DNA of 64,000 nt from Nanobdellota archaeon. GTDB lineage: Archaea > Nanobdellota > Nanobdellia > Parvarchaeales > Parvarchaeaceae. The stretch's first letter is position 1, and each line of letters begins with the position of its first letter. This document shows positions 3,346-57,283 of this stretch, in pieces. The DNA lies in the NCBI GenBank assembly GCA_021810345.1, contig JAJZIX010000002.1, positions 11,027 through 75,026 of the forward strand, written 5' to 3'. The translations under genes and the position numbers were made by a program. The notes below the pieces were generated by a model. That model was not told where the DNA came from. It was given only the letters and a program-made list of their open reading frames with translations, and ran no database searches.

Positions 3346-3419
3346 AAATATTGGATTCTGTTCATATAAAGCCGTTTCCCGAAAGTATTTATATTTGCTG
3401 GATGCAATTCTAAGTTAAT

Positions 3420-3492
3420 GCCCCAATAGTCTAGTGGTCTAGGATCTCGCCCTGTCACGGCAAGGACGCGGGTTCGAATCCCGCTTGGGGCG
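3420..3492 (+). tRNA. tRNA-Asp (anticodon GTC)
   Basis: Acceptor stem GCCCCAA/TTGGGGC with discriminator G. T-arm GCGGG-TTCGAAT-CCCGC. Anticodon loop CTGTCAC places GTC at positions 34-36, but the anticodon stem pairs only 4 of 5. No encoded CCA. Confidence 0.7.
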
Positions 3493-3621
3493 TCTTGATT
3501 CAGTTTAGTTATCTTATCATCTTTAAATAAAGTTAGATATGGGGTTTAAGATACAACTTAAAATTATCAAGTGTTTTTAGTAAATAGATACGGATTTAAG
3601 TGCAAAAAACATATAAAAACA

Positions 3622-5729: not shown

Positions 5730-6440
5730 TTAGAATACAGGCTGGTCCTGAAATATCTGTATCCCCTTGTTTGTTATCTCGAATGGATGCATGCCGGCGC
5801 TGTGTGATGAAAATCTCAACTTTAGTATTGACACGGTCTTCTGGTAGAAATTCTCATTGTAGACCATAGAAAGCAGTATCACACCGTCTGATAAATACAG
5901 CGGTATAGCAAGGTCCTCAGACAGCTCAAGCTTGCTTATGTCGCCGTATTTCTCTATCGCTATGAGCGCAGTCCCAAATGATCTCAGCATATTAAACGTG
6001 TCTCCGAGGATGTTTCTCTGCAAGACTTGGTCTTTTATCTCCCATAAGAAAGGGGTCAGCGGATCTATAGCTATCCTAGAATGCTTTCCCTTCCTGCTTT
6101 CGAGTACTTTCGGTAACTCAACCGACAGGAAATTCTTGAAGTCATGCCCTGTCATCTTTGTGAATATGAAGTTGTTGTTTAGATTCTGCCTGAACTCCTG
6201 GAATCCCAGCGATTCAGCCTCTTTAAGGAATGAGTCAACATCCTGCTCGAGGCTTATATAGAATACTTTCTCTCCGTTTTTTAGCCCTTCCAGGAGGAAT
6301 TCTGTGGAGAAAATGCTTTTACCCGAACCAGGGGATCCGTATAGGACTAGAACGCTATTTTTAACCAGGCCTCCCCCCGATAGTGCATCAAACCCGGCTA
6401 TGCCGCTGCTTATTTTTTCAACCATATGAAATTGAGTCAT
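5730..6440 (-). CDS. KaiC/RadA-like RecA-superfamily ATPase (single domain)
   Basis: Walker A GSPGSGKS sits within GIAGFDALSGGGL...VLVLYGSPGSGKSIFSTEFL, typical of archaeal KaiC homologs. It overlaps the polX stop by 4 nt. Confidence 0.6.
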   Translation of the reverse strand: MTQFHMVEKISSGIAGFDALSGGGLVKNSVLVLYGSPGSGKSIFSTEFLLEGLKNGEKVFYISLEQDVDSFLKEAESLGFQEFRQNLNNNFIFTKMTGHDFKNFLSVELPKVLESRKGKHSRIAIDPLTPFLWEIKDQVLQRNILGDTFNMLRSFGTALIAIEKYGDISKLELSEDLAIPLYLSDGVILLSMVYNENFYQKTVSILKLRFSSHSAGMHPFEITNKGIQIFQDQPVF

Positions 6441-39713: not shown

Positions 39714-40301
39714 CTATTTCAACAGCCTATTAACCCCATCTCTTGTGTATTTATTTGTTTTTTTAAGGTATCTCTCTAATTTATTTCTGTCTAATCTCTT
39801 TATTATCTCCCTTAAAACATCATCTGGCAGTGCTGATTTAAAGTATACAAAATCTATCAACGTTTTCTCTATGTCAGAAACCGGCATAAATCTATCTTTT
39901 ACTCTTTTTGGTTCATAACCAAAGAACATCTTCTTTTGAATATGCCTTATAATTATATTCCTACCAAGTATACTTCTCATACCTGTCCTGACCTTTCTTG
40001 TCGTTATTATAACTGGATTTGTTCCCTGCCCCCACAAGCCCTGCAAAGATAAAGCTTCTTGCAGACCATAATAAAATGGCTCGAATATGAAGCCTACAAT
40101 ATCCAAATCCTCATCAAATGAGTAGTACCCTCTCTTTAATCTTTTTATTTCACCTTTCTTTCTCAGATTATAAAGCATAAGCCTTGCATAATCCTTGCTT
40201 GCTCCCCCCTGCATTAAAAACAGTTCTGCATCCTTGATAGAGAAGTACTTCCTGCCACTAAAATGATCCATAAACTCTTTCTTATATTTTATTCTGCCCA
40301 T
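39714..40301 (-). CDS. AbiEi-like antitoxin/transcriptional regulator (type IV TA system)
   Basis: The N-terminal region LMLYNLRKKGEIKRLKRGYYSF matches the AbiEi wHTH RGxY signature. It overlaps the end of the upstream AbiEii-like gene by 13 nt. Confidence 0.5.
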   Translation of the reverse strand: MGRIKYKKEFMDHFSGRKYFSIKDAELFLMQGGASKDYARLMLYNLRKKGEIKRLKRGYYSFDEDLDIVGFIFEPFYYGLQEALSLQGLWGQGTNPVIITTRKVRTGMRSILGRNIIIRHIQKKMFFGYEPKRVKDRFMPVSDIEKTLIDFVYFKSALPDDVLREIIKRLDRNKLERYLKKTNKYTRDGVNRLLK

Positions 40302-40927
40302 ATCTTCAATGCTTCCAACATCTCCTGAAAAGTAGGTACCTTCCCCTCATAAATTATCGCTTTAAGATCACCTTCATCAACCGGTTCATCTATTTTTAAT
40401 AAAGATTTTTTAACAGACTCCTTTGTTCTTTTGTTATCTACGAATCTAGAAAGGAAATAAACATCATAGATATCCCTTATTTTACGCCTATTGTTGTAGG
40501 CTGACATCTTTTCCAGAATTAATTCCTCTGGCTTCAATGTCAATACTTCTATAGAACTACCATTTGCTTTTTGATAAGTCTTTAGAGTCCCGTGTATATT
40601 TTTTCTAGTTATCTCCAGGCTCATATGAGTAACATCATTCGATATTCGAGAGAAAAGAGTATTTGCAGTCTGTCTAAATTTTAATAGCTTTAAACCTCTT
40701 TTTTTCAATTCATTTTCTAACTTCGCCTTAAGATCCGCAGGATAATTGGTGTATAAATCTATGTCCTCCGAGAACCTTTTGCCACCATAACACCTCCATA
40801 TGGCTGTCCCTTCATGGATTACTGCATTGTCCCATAACGTATATACAACTTCTATCATTTCATCCTGCAATTCGGCTAACTCTTTTTGCGATTCCCTTTT
40901 GAGCTTGTAAATTATCGGAAATTCCAT
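40289..40927 (-). CDS. AbiEii-like nucleotidyltransferase toxin (DUF1814 family)
   Basis: Has the motif HEGTAIWRCYGGKRFSEDIDLY (GGTAL...R(F/L)SEDID(F/L)), diagnostic of AbiEii nucleotidyltransferases. It is 212 aa, shorter than the typical length. Confidence 0.6.
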   Translation of the reverse strand: MEFPIIYKLKRESQKELAELQDEMIEVVYTLWDNAVIHEGTAIWRCYGGKRFSEDIDLYTNYPADLKAKLENELKKRGLKLLKFRQTANTLFSRISNDVTHMSLEITRKNIHGTLKTYQKANGSSIEVLTLKPEELILEKMSAYNNRRKIRDIYDVYFLSRFVDNKRTKESVKKSLLKIDEPVDEGDLKAIIYEGKVPTFQEMLEALKIWAE

Positions 40928-50183: not shown

Positions 50184-50290
50184 TCGACCTTGGAGGAGTT
50201 TTTAACGTATGAAGTCAAAAAATTTGAATGATTGCCTGGAAGCTGAGCCAAAGAAGTCGCGTTTCGTAAAGACTAAGCACCTCTTAGGCA
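50184..50290 (+). repeat. Copy A of a ~90-100-nt direct repeat (RBS plus first 26 codons); copy B lies at 50840-50936
   Basis: 69 consecutive identical nt (aaaaatttgaatgattgcc...cacctctta). The flanking codons differ only synonymously, and both copies have ttggag(g/a)ag upstream. Confidence 0.9.
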
Positions 50291-50829
50291 TATTGGGCCT
50301 GGGTTCAGGAACTGGGTTAGTAGAGATTGACACTCTGGACAGATTAAATGATGTCGGAGCTGTAACAACCCCTACCTCTGTATCCTATACTCCTGGAGGG
50401 CATTACCTCTTAAGAGATCTCGCAGATAATCCAATATATCACGATTTATCGCATTTTTTCGTTAATATAGGTATTTCCGGCGGTCCGAACAATACTCTGG
50501 GCATACTTGCAGCTGCAGCGGCGCTTACTATTGGAGGTTTATCAGCAAGATCATACATAAAAGATACTAAAAACTCTTCTAATACTAAACCAAGTCTCAA
50601 AAAGGCAGCGATATCATCGGCATTTCTAGCAGGCGGCATTTACATAGGATCACAGTCATTTCTTCCGGTGGTTAATGATGTGTTATACAAAGCCCCTATA
50701 TCAACATTGGGGTATGCAGCTGCGGGGGCTGTAGGGGTATTGAGTAGCATATATCTTGGAATCGACTACCTAAAGGCCAGGCACGCGTATAAAAAGCAGG
50801 ATGGAAATGCGTACCTAAAAGATACTTGA
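50209..50829 (+). CDS. Hypothetical protein with three Gly/Ala-rich (glycine-zipper-like) hydrophobic segments; its N-terminal 30 aa are shared with the next gene
   Basis: N-terminus MKSKNLNDCLEAEPKKSRFVKTKHLL(G)ILG. Segments such as TLGILAAAAALTIGGL, LAGGIYIGSQSFL and LGYAAAGAVGVLSSIYLG. GGAGGAG upstream. Confidence 0.5.
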   Translation: MKSKNLNDCLEAEPKKSRFVKTKHLLGILGLGSGTGLVEIDTLDRLNDVGAVTTPTSVSYTPGGHYLLRDLADNPIYHDLSHFFVNIGISGGPNNTLGILAAAAALTIGGLSARSYIKDTKNSSNTKPSLKKAAISSAFLAGGIYIGSQSFLPVVNDVLYKAPISTLGYAAAGAVGVLSSIYLGIDYLKARHAYKKQDGNAYLKDT

Positions 50830-50856
50830 TAGGGGGCCACAAAAATTGGAGAAGTA

Positions 50857-51461
50857 TGAAATCGAAAAATTTGAATGATTGCCTGGAAGCTGAGCCAAAG
50901 AAGTCGCGTTTCGTAAAGACTAAGCACCTCTTAAGTATATTAGGCGGGGATAAAATTATAACACCCTTTAAAAATAGGGTGGATAGCCGCAAGCTTAGAC
51001 ATAAAAAGGGCCAGCCAGTCGGATATAAAGATGTAAAAGATTACCTAGATGGGTTTTTGCAATATTTCGATAAGATTTATTCGGGTGTTACAGGGATAGT
51101 ACTATATGGTTCAATGGCTAGGGGTACGGGCAGGATAGACAGTGATATAGATTTATTGTTTTTCACCGATGATGAGGACAAAACCTATCAGAAAATCGAG
51201 CAGTGTAAAGGCGATTTCTCGTCTGGAGAATACGCAGATTTACTCATTTGTAGAGGCCTGCCTCGAGTTCGGCTGTCTACAGCCATGATGCTAAACAGTG
51301 AATTTGAGCGGATCGTAGAGATATGTCGTAGGAGTGGAGGCGGACTTGCGTACAACTATGCAGATGACGGCATTGTACTCTATGATGCGGGTGGCCGGAC
51401 AAAGAGATACTTAGAAGAACTGCGGACTGAACCTCATATAAAAGACATGATTATACCTTAA
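50857..51461 (+). CDS. Minimal nucleotidyltransferase (Pol beta superfamily, MNT-like) carrying the same N-terminal 30-aa leader as the preceding gene
   Basis: Nucleotidyltransferase motif GIVLYGSMARGTGRIDSDIDLLFF. The start is set at the ATG (MKSKNL) preceded by GGAG rather than the TTG at 50826 used by the ORF track. Confidence 0.6.
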
Positions 51462-51610
51462 GCAGACAAATTCTCCTCCCAGGAGAAAGTAAACCTTTCA
51501 AAGTTCCTAATGGACACACGACAGAAGAATAAATCAGATGTATAATTCTATAAGTAACATGTATAAAAAGTAATACACAAAGCACAATAAAACCCTTAAA
51601 CATATAACTA

Positions 51611-51626
51611 AAATTATATATACTTA
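51611..51626 (+). promoter_or_regulatory. Putative archaeal TATA box (aaattatatatactt) ~28 nt upstream of the mntA-like ATG, implying a leaderless transcript
   Basis: An AT-rich TATA-like octamer at the canonical distance from the start codon. Inferred, not verified. Confidence 0.3.
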
Positions 51627-51645
51627 TAGTTACCTATAATTAACT

Positions 51646-52059
51646 ATGAGTACGACGATACAAATAGATGATGATTTAAGAAAAAGGCTGGAAGAGCTTA
51701 AGAAGCATAAAAGAGAATCTTTAAATGAAGTTATCCATAAAATAATCGCTAAATTACCAAAGAAAATAGCTCCTAACGATGTCGAAAACCTGAAGAAGAT
51801 AGCTGTGCCTGTGCTCAAAGGTTATGGAGTAGAGAAAGCGGCAGTTTTCGGGTCATTCGCAAGAGGCGATGCGACAGAAAATAGCGATATAGACCTATTA
51901 GTGAAATACAAAGAAGGCACTTCCCTGTTTGATGTAGTAAGACTCCAAAATCGTTTAGAAGCGGAACTAGGAAGAAAAGTAGATCTGGTTTCGTATGACT
52001 TTATAGACAAATATATAAGAGAACGTATACTTAAGGAGAGCATTTCCTTATATGAATGA
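51646..52059 (+). CDS. mntA: MntA-like minimal nucleotidyltransferase antitoxin with an N-terminal ribbon-helix-helix extension
   Basis: N-terminus TIQIDDDLRKRLEELKK is RHH-like. Nucleotidyltransferase motif AAVFGSFARGDATENSDIDLLV. Overlaps the downstream HEPN gene by 8 nt. Confidence 0.75.
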   Translation: MSTTIQIDDDLRKRLEELKKHKRESLNEVIHKIIAKLPKKIAPNDVENLKKIAVPVLKGYGVEKAAVFGSFARGDATENSDIDLLVKYKEGTSLFDVVRLQNRLEAELGRKVDLVSYDFIDKYIRERILKESISLYE

Positions 52060-52396
52060 AAAAGATGATTTAGTCTATTTAGGCCATATAATAGATGCGA
52101 TAAATGGGATAAAAGAATACACAAATGGAATGAAAAAGGAGGGCTTCTTGAAGGATAGAAAGACACAGGATGCAGTTATCAGAGAGATAACGATAATAGG
52201 GGAAGCAACAGCGTTTATAAGCGATCTATTCAAAGAAAAACATAGCAGCATACCTTGGACGGAAATGAAGGGAACAAGAAATAGAATTGTACATGGCTAC
52301 TTTTCAATAGATCTTAACATAGTATGGCAGCTAATAATCAGGGATCTACCAGAGCTTGAAATTAAGCTCAAAGAATTAGCAAATGAAGGCAATTAA
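52052..52396 (+). CDS. hepT: HepT-like HEPN (DUF86) RNase toxin
   Basis: Has the Rx4HxY motif RNRIVHGY and the conserved SIPW region. Size and position after an MNT fit a type VII MntA/HepT module. Confidence 0.75.
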   Translation: MNEKDDLVYLGHIIDAINGIKEYTNGMKKEGFLKDRKTQDAVIREITIIGEATAFISDLFKEKHSSIPWTEMKGTRNRIVHGYFSIDLNIVWQLIIRDLPELEIKLKELANEGN

Positions 52397-52492
52397 TCTT
52401 TAGCCTTTTGTAGAGATTTACTTGATTTAGAAGAGAAAACTATAAATAGTATATAAGTTTATATAATAATATTAATAAGTATTACAACAATT

Positions 52493-52765
52493 ATGACAAA
52501 GAATGTAAATGAGGTATTGCATTATCCTAGACTTGATACAGTATTGATGATTGAGGAGGCGATAAAAAACGCTAAAGAGTACCCCTCAAAAAGACAACTT
52601 TGGCTTTCATTGAAGAAAAAGGTCATGTATCAAACTTTTAACATAGTTATAGATTATTTGGTAGAGTCAAACAAAGTGGTCATCGATAAGGAAGGCAAGG
52701 TTATTTGGATATGGGATCCGGAAGGCGTAAAAAAGTATATGAAAGAGGGGGTAATAATACGATGA
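52493..52765 (+). CDS. Hypothetical protein (90 aa)
   Basis: ORF with a TATA-like tttatataat ~28 nt upstream; no recognisable motif. Confidence 0.4.
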   Translation: MTKNVNEVLHYPRLDTVLMIEEAIKNAKEYPSKRQLWLSLKKKVMYQTFNIVIDYLVESNKVVIDKEGKVIWIWDPEGVKKYMKEGVIIR

Positions 52766-52852
52766 AGCAAATAAATGTGGTTCTAGTTGATAAAAAACTT
52801 GAAAATCAAAACTTTACAGATAGGAGTAGCATAATAAAGTTAGAAGTTTAAT

Positions 52853-53254
52853 ATGACAAAATACAAGACACTAAAAAGCGCTGTTTTAGGCAAAAATGGG
52901 GGTGTTTGCTGGGTTTTGCTCACGATAGGTATTGTTCTATCACTTGTGGGGTTCACCGTAATGCCGTGGATAAATATAGTATATGGGGGATTAGTAAATC
53001 ATCTTGCCGGGGTTATAATAGGTTTTTTGCTAATGGCAGTAGGTATATCTATTCTCCTTTTGCTATATCCAAAACTTAATAGTATAAAGCTTAAGCAATC
53101 AAAAGAAAGAAAAAGATTCGTTTATGGACTGGCTATATTTTTGATAATAGCTATCTTTAGTCAGATACCACTGCTTATTTTAGTTTCCAGTACTTTACAA
53201 CTGTTCTCCGCAGAACTGATATTAGGAATATTACTAGGGATGTTTTTGCTATAG
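52853..53254 (+). CDS. Hypothetical membrane protein (4 TM, 133 aa)
   Basis: Hydrophobic helices. Confidence 0.45.
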   Translation: MTKYKTLKSAVLGKNGGVCWVLLTIGIVLSLVGFTVMPWINIVYGGLVNHLAGVIIGFLLMAVGISILLLLYPKLNSIKLKQSKERKRFVYGLAIFLIIAIFSQIPLLILVSSTLQLFSAELILGILLGMFLL

Positions 53255-53430
53255 TGTTTAGGGAGCGAAGTAAACACATTTATCCTTTTGGGAGAAAAGG
53301 GAAGCACTTGATTCTGTTATTTTACGATTTACCCATTAAAGGTATCCTGCGACGAAACATCCCCATCAAACGCCACTTAAGTATAATTCTATGGCTTTTC
53401 GTATGTTTTTTATGTGTTTTTTAGTGGTTT

Positions 53431-53466
53431 TGAGGTCTTGATTTCTACCTTTACAGGGTATCCAGC
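53431..53466. repeat. Conserved ~25-35-nt element (tatgttttt..gag..cttgatttctacctttacagg) downstream of paralog A; a second copy at 54111-54140 abuts the stop of paralog B
   Basis: Direct comparison of the two loci. 21 of 21 nt are identical in the core ttgatttctacctttacagg. Confidence 0.8.
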
Positions 53467-53529
53467 TTACACTTAAAGACTAATTGAAACCTGCAAAAAT
53501 TGGTAAATTCAGCTACTTTCCTACAGAGC

Positions 53530-54042
53530 TCACTGTCTGGAAGCTTCTTCGTCGTCAACTATTTTTTGCACAGTAGGTTTCTGGCGCGCTACTTGTTTCC
53601 GAGCTTCGGGGGATACGGGGCTTTTTATGTATCCATCTGCCTCGTTTTCCAGTAGTTTCTCCCAATTACCTGGCTTATAATTGTAAATATGAATGCCACC
53701 AGATTCATAAACATGCAAGCTCAATACATTGTGCCGCTTAGTCCCAAAAAAGCCATTTGGGATTATATCTACACTTAAAAATGAGAGGTAATCACTCGGT
53801 TTTTTGTATTCGATTCCAAATAAGGCCCCTCCCACATTAATATCTGCTTTATAACTACCCTGCTCATCAATGCATCCCTTATTTCTTTCACTTTGATAAG
53901 TTAGCAGCATTTTCGAAATAGAATACAACTTATTGACTCTTTTTAGTCGTTTTTCCCCTTCGGCCCTCAATAACTCATCTAAAGAAGTATCCCCCCCATC
54001 ATTTTTCTGTATATAGCCATCAGTCTCCATTATCCCCACCAT
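53530..54042 (-). CDS. Hypothetical protein, paralog A of an unrecognised family (170 aa)
   Basis: Shares ERNKGCIDEQGSYKADIN and NYKPGNWEKLLEN with the 54138-54983 protein. Conserved 5' flank ggtataaatt-ATG and 3' motif. Confidence 0.5.
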   Translation of the reverse strand: MVGIMETDGYIQKNDGGDTSLDELLRAEGEKRLKRVNKLYSISKMLLTYQSERNKGCIDEQGSYKADINVGGALFGIEYKKPSDYLSFLSVDIIPNGFFGTKRHNVLSLHVYESGGIHIYNYKPGNWEKLLENEADGYIKSPVSPEARKQVARQKPTVQKIVDDEEASRQ

Positions 54043-54137
54043 AATTTATACCTTATACTTGCTACTATTTAATATCTTAGAAAACAACTGATATAAATAT
54101 CTTATGTTTTTGAGCTTTGATTTCTACCTTTACAGGA

Positions 54138-54983
54138 TCATATGAGAACACTCTGGTTCTCCAGTAGTTTCTCCCAATTACCGGGCTCATAAACATCTAA
54201 CTTTATACGTTTACTCCTCTCATCTTTACTTGCGCTTAACACCATATCTGGGTTAAAATATCCACGGACACCCCCTCGGCTCAAATCTACGGTTAAATGT
54301 GAATAAGTAATATGATCATGGTACATGACTATGAATAACCCTTCTTTAGTTCTAACACCCAGTAGGTAATCTGTGTAATGCTGATCTGGCCCTTCTTTTT
54401 TCAGGCCCTTACTGATTACTAGGGGCACCAAGTTGTCGTATAAATTTCTAGCTTTTTTTAGCCTATTGTACATCTCATTCTTTAATACTTCATCGAGATA
54501 TTTTATCGATGTCTTTATTGTATTACCTTTCGGTGTTAGCTTTCTATACTCCTTTTCTAAAGCATCCTCACATTTGTCTGGCGTGTAAGAATAGAGATAG
54601 AAATCCTCGTTTTTAAAGTACGACAAAGCCGCTACTCCTTTCAGTACATGCCTAAAGATACTCTTTTGATACACATACGTTCCTATAAAAGATTTATTGG
54701 GCTTTTGAGGATCATTAGAATACGTTATAACAAGAGGTTTCTTTTCCGAAGAGATATCTGCCATGTAAGAACCCTCCTTATTAATGTATCCCTTATTTTT
54801 CTCCGCCCGATCAATTAGTAATTCTAATGAAGCTCCAATTAATTTTTCAGCTCGTTGTATTCTTAGTTTCTCTTCTTCGGTTTGTACTGCGGGAACTGTG
54901 AAAACTTCTATTCCCAACAGTTCTGCTAAACTTTTTCCATTTATCTTACCTAAAAGGTTAACTTCATTTCTGCGTTGCGCCAT
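54138..54983 (-). CDS. Hypothetical protein, paralog B of the same unrecognised family (281 aa, with a ~110 aa central insertion)
   Basis: Shares EKNKGYINKEGSYMADIS and VYEPGNWEKLLENQ with paralog A. Same conserved flanks. Confidence 0.5.
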   Translation of the reverse strand: MAQRRNEVNLLGKINGKSLAELLGIEVFTVPAVQTEEEKLRIQRAEKLIGASLELLIDRAEKNKGYINKEGSYMADISSEKKPLVITYSNDPQKPNKSFIGTYVYQKSIFRHVLKGVAALSYFKNEDFYLYSYTPDKCEDALEKEYRKLTPKGNTIKTSIKYLDEVLKNEMYNRLKKARNLYDNLVPLVISKGLKKEGPDQHYTDYLLGVRTKEGLFIVMYHDHITYSHLTVDLSRGGVRGYFNPDMVLSASKDERSKRIKLDVYEPGNWEKLLENQSVLI

Positions 54984-55309
54984 AATTTATACCTACATTT
55001 ATGAATTACTACAGAATGCAACCAATATAAATACTTTACTATTATGTAAGTAGTTAATAAATTATATTATCAGATTTTCCACATTTTGGCTAGATTTTCC
55101 GCATAAAATGCTTTACTCGTCTGTATCTTCAAGTGAGGAAAATCGAAATTATTGTAAATAAACAATCTATGTTCCTCTGTGTCTAATCTTGGTACGGTGC
55201 TCCTCCCAGAAGCCATTTATTCCGTACTTTATGGCGATCGCCCCTAGAACAGCGGTAGCTAAAGAAACACCTTGTATAACTCTTGTCCATGCGTGGCAAA
55301 TCACCATTC

Positions 55310-55570
55310 TTATATCTTTCGAGATCCATTCGATAGATGTAACCTTTCCCCCCTTCTTTTTGATATATTGATAGTATAAGCCAAATCATACTTTGGGGTG
55401 AAGGTACAAGCCAAATCATCCTTTTGGGTGAAGGATTTTCTATATACTAAGGTGGACATTTCTAAACAGTATAACGCCCCATCGTAGTCCTTTTGCCTTA
55501 TACCAGCACTAGCCAGATCAAACCATCTGGTAGCGCTATCCATTGCTTTTTTAGACACTATTCTTTCCAT
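55310..55570 (-). CDS. Hypothetical small protein downstream of an MNT gene, possibly a divergent mini-HEPN partner; contains an in-frame 30-nt tandem duplication
   Basis: 86 aa, overlapping the end of the 55558-56145 nucleotidyltransferase by 13 nt. The N-terminal helix (ATRWFDLASAGIRQKDYDGALYCLEMS) and the C-terminal RRGERLH (Rx4-6H-like) are HEPN-like but weak. Confidence 0.3.
   Translation of the reverse strand: MERIVSKKAMDSATRWFDLASAGIRQKDYDGALYCLEMSTLVYRKSFTQKDDLACTFTPKYDLAYTINISKRRGERLHLSNGSRKI
55381..55440. repeat. Tandem duplication of a 30-nt unit (ccaaatcatactttggggtgaaggtacaag / ccaaatcatccttttgggtgaaggattttc)
   Basis: Read directly. In frame within the 55310-55570 ORF (DLACTFTPKYDLAYT). 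Confidence 0.85.
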
Positions 55571-56145
55571 TCCAGTACCAAATTATTACCCATTTTTACC
55601 CAGGCATATCTTATTTTCTTAAGATTGCTAATAAATTCACTTAATATTCCATCTTTTTCATATAATATTGTCCCCTCCTCTAATAATGATATATAAAATG
55701 GTCTAAACTCTGCTAGATCCTCTTTCTTTAAAATAACCTCACTTATGTACAGATGTAATCCTTTTGCAACTAATTTCTGTCTCATGGGATCAATTTCCTT
55801 AATTATTTGCTCTAACTTATCGAAATAGGTTAATACGTTTCCATCAACAACGACTAATATGTCTATGTCACTATAACTATTAAAAGTTCCCCGAGCAATT
55901 GATCCAAAAAGCATAATTCCAAGAACATTTTTATCCTGTTTAACCTGGTCTACAAATGTTAAGATATAATTTTGTATATCCATGTCTAATTTCAAAAAAT
56001 TTACTTTTTTCTTTATAAATTCATTAATAACATCAGAAAATGTAACTTTTTTATTCGACTTTGTCTGTATCATGGCCTTTGCATCAACAAGTGCATTATA
56101 CGCATTTTTATCAAGTAAAGTCTGCTTATATTTTTTGTTTCTCAT
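55558..56145 (-). CDS. Minimal nucleotidyltransferase (MNT family) with N-terminal RHH-like and C-terminal extensions
   Basis: Nucleotidyltransferase motif IMLFGSIARGTFNSYSDIDILVVVD. The N-terminus KKVTFSDVINEFIKKK is RHH-like. Confidence 0.7.
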   Translation of the reverse strand: MRNKKYKQTLLDKNAYNALVDAKAMIQTKSNKKVTFSDVINEFIKKKVNFLKLDMDIQNYILTFVDQVKQDKNVLGIMLFGSIARGTFNSYSDIDILVVVDGNVLTYFDKLEQIIKEIDPMRQKLVAKGLHLYISEVILKKEDLAEFRPFYISLLEEGTILYEKDGILSEFISNLKKIRYAWVKMGNNLVLEWKE

Positions 56146-56880: not shown

Positions 56881-57283
56881 TATAATAAGCTGTTTATAAG
56901 ATATTTAAGCTTTTCTGCATAGTATAAATATGCTAAATAATGGGTTAATCGTTATAATAAATAAATTAATATTAAGATAATATTATTGTTATCTATATAT
57001 TGAATATTATATCACTTTATTTATAATAAGCCTGACGCTTTTGCTGCTTTTTATAAGGCAGATGATGATAATTATAGTATTGATTATAATATTATAAATA
57101 ATAAAATAGTACTATCGAATTTAATATTATTTTATCATACTATATATTTGAATAATCCTTGTGCGTATGCAGTTATCCCAACCAATATAGTGTATGTGTA
57201 ATTCGTAGAAAAATAAATTATTACAATAATGGGATTTATTTTTATTGCCCCGCCAGCAGCAAATGTATACCGCGTCCTTTGTT

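What the first reader, a model, noticed from the sequence alone, without database searches (positions are those of the whole stretch)
53431..55000. Paralogous pair of unrecognised proteins with conserved 5' leader and 3' downstream element
The 53530-54042 (170 aa) and 54138-54983 (281 aa) genes share two peptide blocks: (E/R)(K/R)NKG(Y/C)I(N/D)(K/E)(E/Q)GSY(M/K)ADI and (Y/N)(E/K)PGNWEKLLEN. They share an identical 5' flank, ggtataaatt immediately before the ATG, and a 3' element (tatgttttt..gag..cttgatttctacctttacagg). The 3' element sits 64 nt past the stop of one gene and directly abuts the stop of the other. I could not match either protein to a known domain. Conserved non-coding flanks suggest the pair duplicated as a unit, or carries a functional RNA or DNA element such as a regulatory site, a recombination site or a small RNA. 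The location inside the nucleotidyltransferase/HEPN island suggests a defence-related role.
Basis: seen in the sequence. Interest (0 to 1): 0.6.

Follow-up and report, generated by a model that had tools for sequence, protein, structure and literature searches.

The report
Strain-variable tandem gene cassettes, tiny archaeon
The two genes are real paralogues in a head-to-tail array of an uncharacterised protein family from acid-mine-drainage DPANN archaea; sister strains differ here by swapped, fused or deleted cassettes, and the repeated 3' DNA motif is a leftover of that reshuffling, not a signal in its own right.

Summary
Both genes, both peptide blocks, the identical 5' flank and the exact 20-nt 3' motif are present, and the motif pair is far above chance. 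The 281-aa gene is a tandem duplication of the domain in the 170-aa gene.

Twenty-nine related loci show a recombination-shuffled cassette array in a chromosomal segment rich in toxin-antitoxin genes, in Parvarchaeota-like DPANN archaea. Each cassette has a family-specific promoter and leader, a highly divergent body, and sometimes a constant 3' block. That block is the YxPGNWEKLLEN motif, a 38-aa tail and about 250 nt of non-coding DNA.

Near-identical strains carry different bodies on the same 3' block. One carries the 281-aa body fused to the tail exactly at the NWEKLLEN repeat, with the 170-aa gene gone.

Its second copy is a truncated relic at a cassette junction. It is the least conserved part of the block, shows no RNA structure signal and is not a widespread element.

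The 5' flank is part of a conserved promoter and leader. The proteins match no known family or fold, so their function is unknown. A role in conflict or immunity is inferred only from context.

The parts
53530..54042 (-). Cassette g1: complete single-domain family member (170 aa), made of a variable body (residues 1-~120), the YKPGNWEKLLEN motif and a 38-aa constant tail.
   Evidence: ORF. Family HMM E 4e-57. AlphaFold2 core residues 20-140 have pLDDT above 90: a long N-terminal helix, a 5-strand antiparallel sheet and a C-terminal helix. The tail is disordered.
54138..54983 (-). Cassette g2: two-domain family member (281 aa) that ends 5 codons after NWEKLLEN and lacks the tail.
   Evidence: Both halves align to g1. 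Two HMM domains are found. The 99%-identical P0001 (313 aa) carries the tail. The P0001 model shows two alpha-beta-alpha modules.
53533..53646 (-). Coding region of the constant C-terminal tail NEADGYIKSPVSPEARKQVARQKPTVQKIVDDEEASRQ.
   Evidence: The tail is nearly identical on bodies that are only 37-52% identical to each other (P0005, P0006, P0008). The same module also exists as stand-alone 45-73 aa proteins and as a two-copy protein.
53641..53680 (-). YKPGNWEKLLEN DNA repeat, g1 copy. It marks the 5' edge of the constant 3' block and is a crossover site.
   Evidence: 90% identical to 54153-54192, with a 23-nt exact core. All related loci regain more than 90% identity to the window from 53679-53684 onwards.
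54153..54192 (-). YEPGNWEKLLEN DNA repeat, g2 copy.
   Evidence: In L001-L004 the sequence is collinear with the window down to 54157 and then continues at 53680. That is a junction inside this repeat.
53280..53529 (-). Non-coding part of the constant 3' block. It includes a T5 run (within 53493-53503) that is a candidate archaeal terminator for g1, and T-runs on the + strand (53396-53431).
   Evidence: It is 92-99% conserved in all loci whatever lies upstream or downstream. Homology ends at 53280 in L004, L005 and L015. There is no structure signal.
53427..53457 (-). It is an ordinary segment of the constant 3' block.
   Evidence: There is one copy per related locus at the same position. It shows 9/31 differences between haplotypes A and C, against 14/219 in the rest of the non-coding block.
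54106..54143 (-). It is a truncated relic of a 3' block fused to the g1 promoter and forms the 5' edge of the g1 cassette. It supplies g2's last two sense codons (ATA, and the TC of CTC) and its stop codon.
   Evidence: L015 carries the same relic + promoter + g1-like body behind a different upstream gene, with homology to the window starting at 54143. The relic is a mosaic of haplotype A/B and C variants.
54043..54105 (-). g1 promoter and 5' leader: TATA box TATTTATAT at 54091-54099 and the Shine-Dalgarno-like AGGTATAAATT just before the ATG.
   Evidence: It aligns with the promoters of all cassette types in all lineages. It is 89.6% identical to the promoter of the unrelated-body P0008 allele. 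The pattern is exact only at g1 and g2 in the window.
54984..55038 (-). g2 promoter and 5' leader: TATA box at 55025-55033 and the same AGGTATAAATT before the ATG.
55094..55216 (-). Decayed third cassette: a 43-codon fragment of a 'type D' family member.
   Evidence: tblastn with P0025 gives 67% identity, E 6e-15. L017 matches this DNA at 87.5%.

Best explanation
The region is a head-to-tail array of three cassettes in a strain-variable chromosomal segment of a Parvarchaeota-like DPANN archaeon. The cassettes are a decayed type-D fragment, the two-domain g2 and the single-domain g1. They belong to a rare, lineage-restricted family of soluble proteins.

Each cassette has three parts:
- a family-specific promoter and leader (TATTTATAT ... 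TTCT ... TAGTA ... AGGTATAAAnTATG);
- a fast-diverging alpha-beta5-alpha body;
- at the end of the array, a constant 3' block made of the YxPGNWEKLLEN motif, a 38-aa disordered tail and about 250 nt of non-coding DNA.

Shown: the conserved promoter and the conserved 3' block act as homology arms. Ordinary homologous recombination across them replaces, fuses, duplicates and deletes bodies in the population.

Its second copy was left at the g2/g1 junction when a 3' block was joined to the g1 promoter, and it now travels as the 5' edge of the g1 cassette.

Inferred: the bodies are variable binding modules, and the tail is a common docking peptide. Strain-level turnover inside a segment rich in toxin-antitoxin genes points to a role in inter-genomic conflict (immunity-, antitoxin- or sensor-like) rather than housekeeping.
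For: Strain comparison:
- L001-L004 come from four assemblies and have 99.6%-identical flanks. They join window 54157 directly to 53680, inside the NWEKLLEN repeat. This gives a g2-body + tail fusion with no g1.
- L011-L014 have 97-99%-identical flanks. They keep the 67-nt promoter (89.6%) and the 3' block (98.7%) but carry a body with no DNA similarity, P0008.
- L005-L010 carry a third body, P0006, on the same 3' block.

Independent assortment:
- 3' block haplotypes A, B and C combine freely with bodies. P0008 occurs with A and B, g1 with A and B, and P0006 with C or with a C/A mosaic whose crossover lies in the spacer.
- Different alleles coexist in one sample: L003 with L013, and L005 with L016.

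Array structure elsewhere:
- Tandem arrays occur in L015, L017, L022 and L029, with relic junctions in L005 and L015.
- The promoter is conserved across all cassette types (70% mean column identity) while the proteins average 25%.

Within the window, g1 versus g2:
- bodies 55-62% DNA identity;
- promoter 78%;
- motif 90%;
- element 29/30.

Family properties:
- The family is rare: 24 representative clusters among 1.84 billion, and none on viral contigs.
- The core fold is confidently predicted.
- The proteins are soluble.

Context:
- MNT/HepT, nucleotidyltransferases and AbiE lie nearby.
- In L008 a two-domain family member replaces the MNT/HepT pair found at the same site in L006.
Against: - There is no direct evidence for function. 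No family, defence-system or fold match was found.
- pN/pS between g1 and its 95% allele is about 0.6 from only 10 substitutions. Diversifying selection is therefore not demonstrated.
- The direction of events is unresolved: tandem to fusion by deletion, or fusion to tandem by insertion. A 75%-identical g2-like protein with a tail (P0002) exists in another lineage.
- Promoter conservation could reflect common regulation rather than a role as a homology arm.
- Transcription start, termination and Shine-Dalgarno assignments are inferred from sequence only.
- All related loci come from metagenome assemblies of a few acid-mine-drainage projects.
Confidence: 0.7

Rival explanations
1. The 20-31-nt 3' motif is itself a functional cis element attached to each gene: a terminator, a small RNA, a protein-binding site or a site-specific recombination site.
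For: - It is an exact 20-nt duplicate that is very unlikely by chance.
- Copy 2 sits exactly at a cassette junction and is kept at 98% identity with the g1 cassette in L015.
- It is more similar between the two copies than the gene bodies are.
Against: - It is the most diverged segment of the 3' block between lineages: 9/31 differences against 14/219.
- There is no folding signal on either strand and no Rfam hit.
- The gene strand has no T-run in the motif, and a T5 run lies 36 nt upstream.
- Other arrays join cassettes at a different point of the 3' block, without the motif (L005, L029).
- Strain breakpoints lie in NWEKLLEN, in the spacer and at 53280, not at the motif.
- No integrase or reverse transcriptase was found among the window ORFs of at least 230 aa that were scanned with Pfam; six such ORFs outside the locus were not scanned.
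- Exact matches in JGI metagenomes and IMG/VR all lie in unrelated contexts.
Confidence: 0.1
2. This is a programmed switching system, like antigenic or phase variation. Frequent recombination at the NWEKLLEN repeat moves alternative bodies onto the single tail-bearing expression slot within a clonal population.
For: - A natural g2-body/tail fusion has its junction inside the repeat.
- Alleles coexist in single samples.
- The boundary between variable and constant DNA is sharp.
- There is only one tail copy per locus.
Against: - Every cassette has its own promoter, leader and start codon, so none is silent.
- Many family members naturally lack the tail.
- The homology is only 23-40 nt.
- No dedicated recombinase was seen.
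- The proteins are soluble and cytoplasmic by sequence.
- Coexisting alleles are equally explained by coexisting strains.
Confidence: 0.08
3. These are decaying, functionless orphan genes. The array is neutral duplication debris in a dispensable segment, and the conserved flanks only reflect recent common ancestry.
For: - The window holds a pseudogene fragment and a g2 that lacks the tail.
- L015 appears to have a frameshifted type-D gene.
- pN/pS is about 0.6.
- The family is extremely rare.
Against: - Core residues (L21, Y40, Y79, W127, E128, G125) are invariant or nearly so across 21 members at 25% mean identity.
- The predicted fold is confident, with pLDDT above 90.
- The promoter is conserved across lineages in which the bodies are saturated.
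- Intact ORFs are kept in many strains: P0006 lies on at least 24 contigs.
Confidence: 0.1

Closest known systems
Polymorphic toxin loci with orphan cassettes (Rhs, CdiA-CT/CdiI; Zhang et al. 2012, PMC3482391, for the concept of recombination with standalone cassettes)
   Same: Both have tandem arrays of divergent cassettes. Both show a sharp switch from constant to variable sequence at a short conserved peptide motif (VENN or PxxxxDPxGL there, YxPGNWEKLLEN here). In both, homologous recombination at that motif fuses a different module to the constant part and deletes the intervening DNA.
   Different: The orientation is a mirror image: here the C-terminus is constant and the N-terminus variable. 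There is no trafficking domain, no toxin domain and no paired immunity gene. Each cassette has its own promoter and start. The host is an archaeon and the proteins are small and cytoplasmic. No sequence or fold relationship was found.
Cassette-based antigenic variation loci (Neisseria pilE/pilS, Trypanosoma VSG with a conserved 3' end, Anaplasma msp2). This comparison rests on my own knowledge, not on a test here.
   Same: A variable body lies between conserved 5' and 3' arms that serve as recombination boundaries, and there are several paralogous copies per locus.
   Different: There are no promoterless silent copies and no evidence of high-frequency programmed conversion. The proteins have no signal peptide or membrane anchor.
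Strain-variable defence or toxin-antitoxin 'hotspots' flanked by core genes. This comparison rests on my own knowledge.
   Same: Cargo differs between near-identical strains within a fixed chromosomal frame. MNT/HepT, AbiE and restriction-modification genes are neighbours. In one strain a family member replaces an MNT/HepT pair.
   Different: The cargo consists of paralogues of one family, with breakpoints inside the gene and its promoter rather than between genes. No known defence protein model matches.
p32/gC1qBP/Mam33 fold (helix - antiparallel sheet - helix)

Membership tests
Any curated protein family (Pfam-A, NCBIfam, PHROGs, PADLOC) | Profile HMM match above the curated or significant threshold | tested here: not met
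   g1 and g2 have no hit at E up to 0.1 (Pfam) or 1 (NCBIfam, PADLOC), and only one noise-level PHROG hit (g1, E 0.31); relatives show only scattered hits at E above 0.01.
Archaeal oligo-T terminator or bacterial intrinsic terminator (for the 3' motif) | T-run on the transcribed strand, or a GC-rich hairpin followed by a T-run, at the motif | tested here: not met
   The gene-strand motif CCTGTAAAGGTAGAAATCAAG has no T-run. The T5 run lies upstream, within 53493-53503. The terminator scan found nothing at the motif. The T-runs on the + strand (53396-53431) lie beside the core motif and overlap only the edge of the 31-nt element.
Structured non-coding RNA (for the 3' motif or 3' block) | Rfam match, or folding energy well below shuffled controls | tested here: not met
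   There is no Rfam hit at gathering threshold, and none at E up to 5 in the 3' block or motif (one noise-level SNORD65 hit, 15.8 bits, inside the g1 coding region). Folding z-scores are +0.65 and +0.40 for the two strands of 53270-53530. Covariation could not be assessed because there are only about three haplotypes.
Integron gene cassette with attC | An adjacent tyrosine integrase; an imperfect inverted-repeat attC at the 3' end of every cassette; promoterless cassettes | tested here: not met
   No integrase was found among the scanned ORFs of at least 230 aa or among the neighbours. The motif has no inverted-repeat partner. Every cassette has its own TATA box and leader. The motif is absent from the cassette junctions in L005 and L029.
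Polymorphic toxin / immunity system | A large N-terminal trafficking or filamentous region, a C-terminal toxin domain and an adjacent immunity gene | tested here: not met
   The proteins are 150-350 aa with no toxin, Rhs, CdiA or Imm Pfam hits. The constant part is C-terminal. The cassettes are single genes.
Type II toxin-antitoxin pair | A two-gene operon of small partners with a recognisable toxin or antitoxin fold | tested here: not met
   g1 and g2 are paralogues of each other, not complementary partners, and each has its own promoter. True MNT/HepT pairs lie nearby at 51646-52396.
Diversity-generating retroelement target | A reverse transcriptase plus a template/variable repeat pair of about 100 nt differing at adenines | tested here: inconclusive
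   No reverse transcriptase was found among the scanned ORFs of at least 230 aa. The only near-identical repeats are 40 nt and 31 nt. Smaller ORFs across the whole window were not scanned.

The most novel reading that the evidence does not exclude
The family is a previously unrecognised polymorphic effector, immunity or sensor system of DPANN archaea, built as the mirror image of bacterial polymorphic toxins. Interchangeable N-terminal recognition bodies are recombined, at the YxPGNWEKLLEN boundary, onto a constant C-terminal peptide (KSPVSPEARKQVARQKPTVQ...DDEE). That peptide also exists as stand-alone small proteins. It would act as a shared docking, delivery or regulatory signal, for example for hand-over to a partner complex or to the host cell on which these symbionts depend.
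Probability: 0.12. Interest if true: 0.8.

Novelty: new variant of a known kind. Interest (0 to 1): 0.45.

Why it matters
DPANN archaea have tiny genomes with little room for dispensable DNA. A locus that keeps two or three divergent paralogues is therefore notable. This one also keeps a family-specific promoter conserved beyond the proteins themselves, and it differs between otherwise 99%-identical strains in the same sediment. Together these features make it a strong candidate for a conflict or host-interaction function in organisms where such functions are almost unknown.

The locus is also a clean natural example of gene-internal homologous recombination creating fusion proteins: the 313-aa g2-body/tail chimera.

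It defines two uncharacterised modules that can now be searched for and tested: an alpha-beta5-alpha domain with a PGxWE signature, and a KSPVSxEAxxQ tail peptide.

For the scan itself, the lesson is that exact non-coding repeats next to paralogues can be recombination scars rather than signals.

Tried and rejected
- Known families. Pfam, NCBIfam, PHROGs and PADLOC gave no significant hit for g1, g2 or relatives.
- tRNA-fragment or att-site idea for the motif. The only tRNA in the window is tRNA-Asp at 3419-3494, and there is no similarity to it.
- Small RNA in the 3' block. Neither Rfam nor folding gave a signal.
- Relics of a 3' block upstream of g2. Nothing significant was found in 54984-55560. 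That region holds a decayed type-D cassette instead.
- Widespread element. Exact-motif scans of JGI metagenomes and IMG/VR returned only unrelated chance contexts.
- Viral origin. No family member was found on IMG/VR contigs.
- Positive selection. g1 versus its 95% allele gives pN/pS of about 0.6 on 10 substitutions, which is uninformative.
- Partner of the tail peptide. The neighbourhoods of the stand-alone tail genes (P0019, P0034) show no recurrent partner gene.
- Literature. Searches found papers on the organism group (PMC7779479, PMC5864196) but nothing describing this family or locus.
Full report
**1. Checking the observation**

The two ORFs lie at 53530-54042(-) (g1, 170 aa) and 54138-54983(-) (g2, 281 aa).

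BLASTP aligns g1 to both halves of g2 (E 4e-12 and 2e-10). g2 is therefore a tandem duplication of the g1 domain.

The 5' flank is an exact 15-mer, AGGTATAAATTATGG, at 54039-54053 and 54980-54994. The exact 13-mer occurs only there in the window.

The 3' motif TTGATTTCTACCTTTACAGG is exact at 53438-53457 and 54117-54136 and nowhere else, even with 3 mismatches. Chance expectation is 0.03 matches. The similarity extends to 31 nt.

One correction: the motif starts 72 nt, not 64 nt, past the g1 stop. It starts 1 nt past the g2 stop.

There is also a 40-nt, 90%-identical DNA repeat over YxPGNWEKLLEN (53641-53680 / 54153-54192).

An independent JGI contig (L016) has the same tandem pair at 99.1% identity, so the arrangement is real.

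**2. What the proteins are**

No Pfam, NCBIfam, PHROG or PADLOC model matches g1, g2 or their relatives.

The family is very rare:
- The word-indexed search of 5.8 billion clusters found 2 relatives for g2 and 7 for g1.
- A profile search of 1.84 billion representatives found 24.
- None is on a viral contig.
- The two GTDB genomes with hits are labelled Candidatus Parvarchaeota (FK_Sedi_A_Bin.204) and Candidatus Micrarchaeota (FK3.bin92). These are DPANN archaea of acid mine drainage sediments (organism background: PMC7779479, PMC5864196).

AlphaFold2 gives a confident core for g1 (residues 20-140, pLDDT above 90). It has a long N-terminal helix, a five-strand antiparallel sheet and a C-terminal helix that carries the PGNWEKLLEN motif. 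The last 30 or so residues are disordered. The 313-aa relative P0001 folds as two such modules.

Across 21 members at 25% mean identity, L21, Y40, Y79, W127 and E128 are invariant.

g1 and g2 have no hydrophobic segment. One two-domain relative (L029 81-1145) ends in two hydrophobic helices.

**3. The constant tail**

P0001 is 99% identical to g2 but is 313 aa long. After NWEKLLEN it continues with NEADGYVKSPVSPEARKQIARQKPTVQKIVDDEEASRQ, which is the tail of g1. In the window, g2 instead ends with QSVLI*.

The same tail is nearly identical on bodies that share only 37-52% identity (P0005, P0006, P0008). More distant family members lack it.

The tail module also exists on its own. There are 45-73 aa proteins such as P0034 (MGIFKKRPQKDKDCGDELVKSPVSKEAINQIRKQKPTIKVFEEDKKDEEDELHS), and P0019 carries two copies. 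The neighbourhoods of these stand-alone genes show no recurrent partner. The window has only one tail copy.

**4. Strain comparison: the key evidence**

blastn of the related loci against the window shows a fixed chromosomal frame with variable content.

- L001-L004 come from four assemblies and have 99.6%-identical flanks. They run collinear with the window from 60000 down to 54157 and then continue at 53680. The junction lies inside the NWEKLLEN repeat: the sequence is g2-like up to ...ACTACTGGA and tail-like afterwards. g1 and element copy 2 are absent, and the product is the g2-body/tail fusion.
- L011-L014 have 97-99%-identical flanks. They join window 56943 to 54105. They keep the 67-nt promoter and leader (89.6%), carry a body with no detectable DNA similarity (P0008), and regain 98.7% identity from 53679 onwards.
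- L005-L010 belong to a more distant lineage (85-92% identity). They carry P0006 and regain identity from 53684.

The constant 3' block therefore begins at YxPGNWE. It runs about 400 nt to ...CCCAAAAGGATAA (53280). Beyond that point L004, L005 and L015 diverge again.

Diagnostic SNPs define 3' block haplotypes A, B and C, and these assort independently of the bodies:
- P0008 occurs with A (L011, L013) and with B (L012, L014).
- g1 occurs with A (window, L016) and with B (L015).
- P0006 occurs with C (L005-L009) and with a C/A mosaic whose crossover lies in the spacer before the motif (L010).

Different alleles coexist in single samples: L003 with L013 in ERZ27237313, and L005 with L016 in JGI 3300033990.

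This is the signature of general homologous recombination using conserved arms, not of a single specific site.

**5. The array and its junctions**

Tandem arrays of family members are the rule:
- L015: type D, then a g1-like gene.
- L017: a g1-like gene, then type D.
- L022: a single-domain gene, then a double-domain gene.
- L029: type C with a tail, then type D.

The window itself holds a third, decayed cassette at 55094-55216, which is 67% identical to P0025 (E 6e-15).

In L029 the tail gene's stop is followed by the spacer ...AGTCTTTAAGTGTA, joined directly to TCAAATCC and the TATTTATAT box of the next cassette's promoter. The same junction survives as an 18-nt relic upstream of P0006 in L005-L010, where the preceding gene has been lost.

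In the window and in L015 the junction lies at a different point of the 3' block: ATATGAT + CCTGTAAAGGTAGAAATCAAAGCTCAAAAAC, joined to the g1 promoter. L015 has this relic + promoter + g1-like body behind a different upstream gene, with homology to the window starting at 54143. Copy 2 of the motif therefore belongs to the 5' edge of the g1 cassette.

Copy 2 is also a mosaic. Its first 20 nt match haplotypes A/B, and the following AGCTCAAAAAC matches haplotype C.

**6. Is the 3' motif functional?**

The evidence is against it.
- Between haplotypes A and C the 31-nt element has 9 differences. The remaining 219 nt of non-coding 3' block have 14. It is the least constrained part.
- Neither strand of 53270-53530 folds better than shuffled controls (z +0.65 and +0.40).
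- Rfam finds nothing in the 3' block or at the motif; its only hit at E up to 5 is a noise-level snoRNA match inside the g1 coding region.
- On the gene strand the motif has no T-run. A T5 run, the usual archaeal termination signal (my own knowledge), lies 36 nt upstream within 53493-53503.
- The motif is not a widespread element. There are 14 + 2 exact hits in JGI metagenomes and IMG/VR, all in unrelated sequence contexts and GC backgrounds.
- Among the window's ORFs of at least 230 aa, those scanned with Pfam encode housekeeping proteins, transporters or proteins with no match. None is an integrase or a reverse transcriptase; six such ORFs outside the locus were not scanned.

**7. The 5' flank**

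Aligning about 70 nt upstream of ten cassettes, covering all types and lineages, shows a shared promoter and leader. Its features are an invariant TATTTATAT, TTCT about 8-12 nt downstream, TAGTA(A/G)T, and (A/G)GGTATAAAnTATG. Mean column identity is 70%, against 25% for the proteins.

In the window this pattern is exact only at g1 (54079-54099) and g2 (55013-55033). Chance expectation is 0.35.

L017 has GGAGGTATAAATT. The Shine-Dalgarno assignment is inferred.

The promoter is thus a family-specific regulatory module. In the P0008 allele it also serves as the 5' homology arm.

**8. Quantitative contrast within the window**

| Segment, g1 versus g2 | DNA identity |
|---|---|
| Bodies | 55-62% |
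| Promoter and leader | 78% |
| YxPGNWEKLLEN repeat | 90% |
| 3' element | 29/30 |

The flanks are therefore younger than the bodies, or homogenised. That is expected if cassettes are moved by recombination through conserved arms.

**9. Mechanism and function**

Shown:
- The locus has a cassette architecture.
- Strains differ by replacement, fusion and deletion at conserved arms.
- The 3' motif is a relic.

Inferred:
- The direction of the g2/g1 event is open. The simplest step is deletion between the two NWEKLLEN repeats of a tandem ancestor, giving P0001. However, a 75%-identical g2-like protein with a tail (P0002) in another lineage leaves the ancestral state unresolved.
- Biological role is inferred from four facts. 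The proteins are soluble. The locus varies between strains. It lies among MNT/HepT (51646-52396), nucleotidyltransferases (50826-51461, 55558-56145) and AbiEi/AbiEii (39714-40927). In L008 a two-domain member plus a small gene replace the MNT/HepT pair present at the same site in L006.
- From these I infer variable binding modules used in inter-genomic conflict, with the tail as a common docking peptide. This is a weak inference. pN/pS is uninformative.

**10. Comparison with known systems, and verdict**

The closest analogy is the orphan-cassette recombination of polymorphic toxin loci (PMC3482391), but in mirror image and without any of its defining domains. Antigenic-variation cassettes and defence hotspots share parts of the logic.

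None of the membership tests was met; the DGR test was inconclusive. These covered curated families, known folds, terminator, structured RNA, integron attC, polymorphic toxin, toxin-antitoxin pair and DGR.

I rate the finding as a new variant of a known kind, with moderate interest (0.45). It is a real, well-defined, uncharacterised family with an unusual population-genetic architecture in DPANN archaea. It has no demonstrated function, and the specific non-coding element that prompted the finding is explained as a recombination scar.

Noticed in passing
window 50207-50298 and 50854-50945 (+ strand): A 92-nt direct repeat (95% identical) covers the start codon and first ~30 codons (MKSKNLNDCLEAEPKKSRFVKTKHLL...) of two adjacent genes: a 206-aa Gly/Ala-rich protein and a nucleotidyltransferase. 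Sister strain L011 lacks the DNA between the repeats (window 50299-50853). This looks like a second example of gene gain or loss by recombination between repeated gene ends, here the 5' ends.
   Followed up: partly
window 51605-53279: L004 and L015 join window 53280 directly to 51604. They therefore lack the MNT/HepT pair, the 90-aa gene and the 133-aa membrane-protein gene. L005 has different DNA after 53280. The segment downstream of the constant 3' block is thus a second variable spot.
   Followed up: partly
L008 6225-7654 versus L006 6698-7629: A 354-aa two-domain family member plus a 91-aa gene occupy exactly the position held by an MNT/HepT toxin-antitoxin pair in sister contigs, between the same MFS transporter and SHOCT genes. 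The homologous 354-aa protein in L029 ends in two hydrophobic helices.
   Followed up: partly
L023-L027 around 6001-6165; L018-L021: Stand-alone small proteins consist only of the tail module (P0034, 54 aa; P0019 with two copies and a hydrophobic N-terminus). They are common in related MAGs, and the DNA just downstream of P0034 differs between strains.
   Followed up: partly
window 55310-55570 (-) and 55369-55428: An 86-aa ORF overlaps the end of the nucleotidyltransferase gene at 55558-56145. It may be a truncated partner gene (HEPN-like by position only; there is no Pfam hit). It contains a 30-nt tandem duplication (83% identical).
   Followed up: no
window 39714-40927 (-): An AbiEi antitoxin / AbiEii nucleotidyltransferase toxin pair lies about 13 kb from the finding. 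It adds to the toxin-antitoxin load of this chromosomal region.
   Followed up: no
window 56881-56943 versus L011 740-760: In L011-L014 the family promoter replaces the bPH_2 gene promoter at the same point, about 14 nt upstream of the TATA box (GATTAACC|...). Insertion and deletion boundaries in this island therefore tend to fall immediately 5' of promoters.
   Followed up: partly
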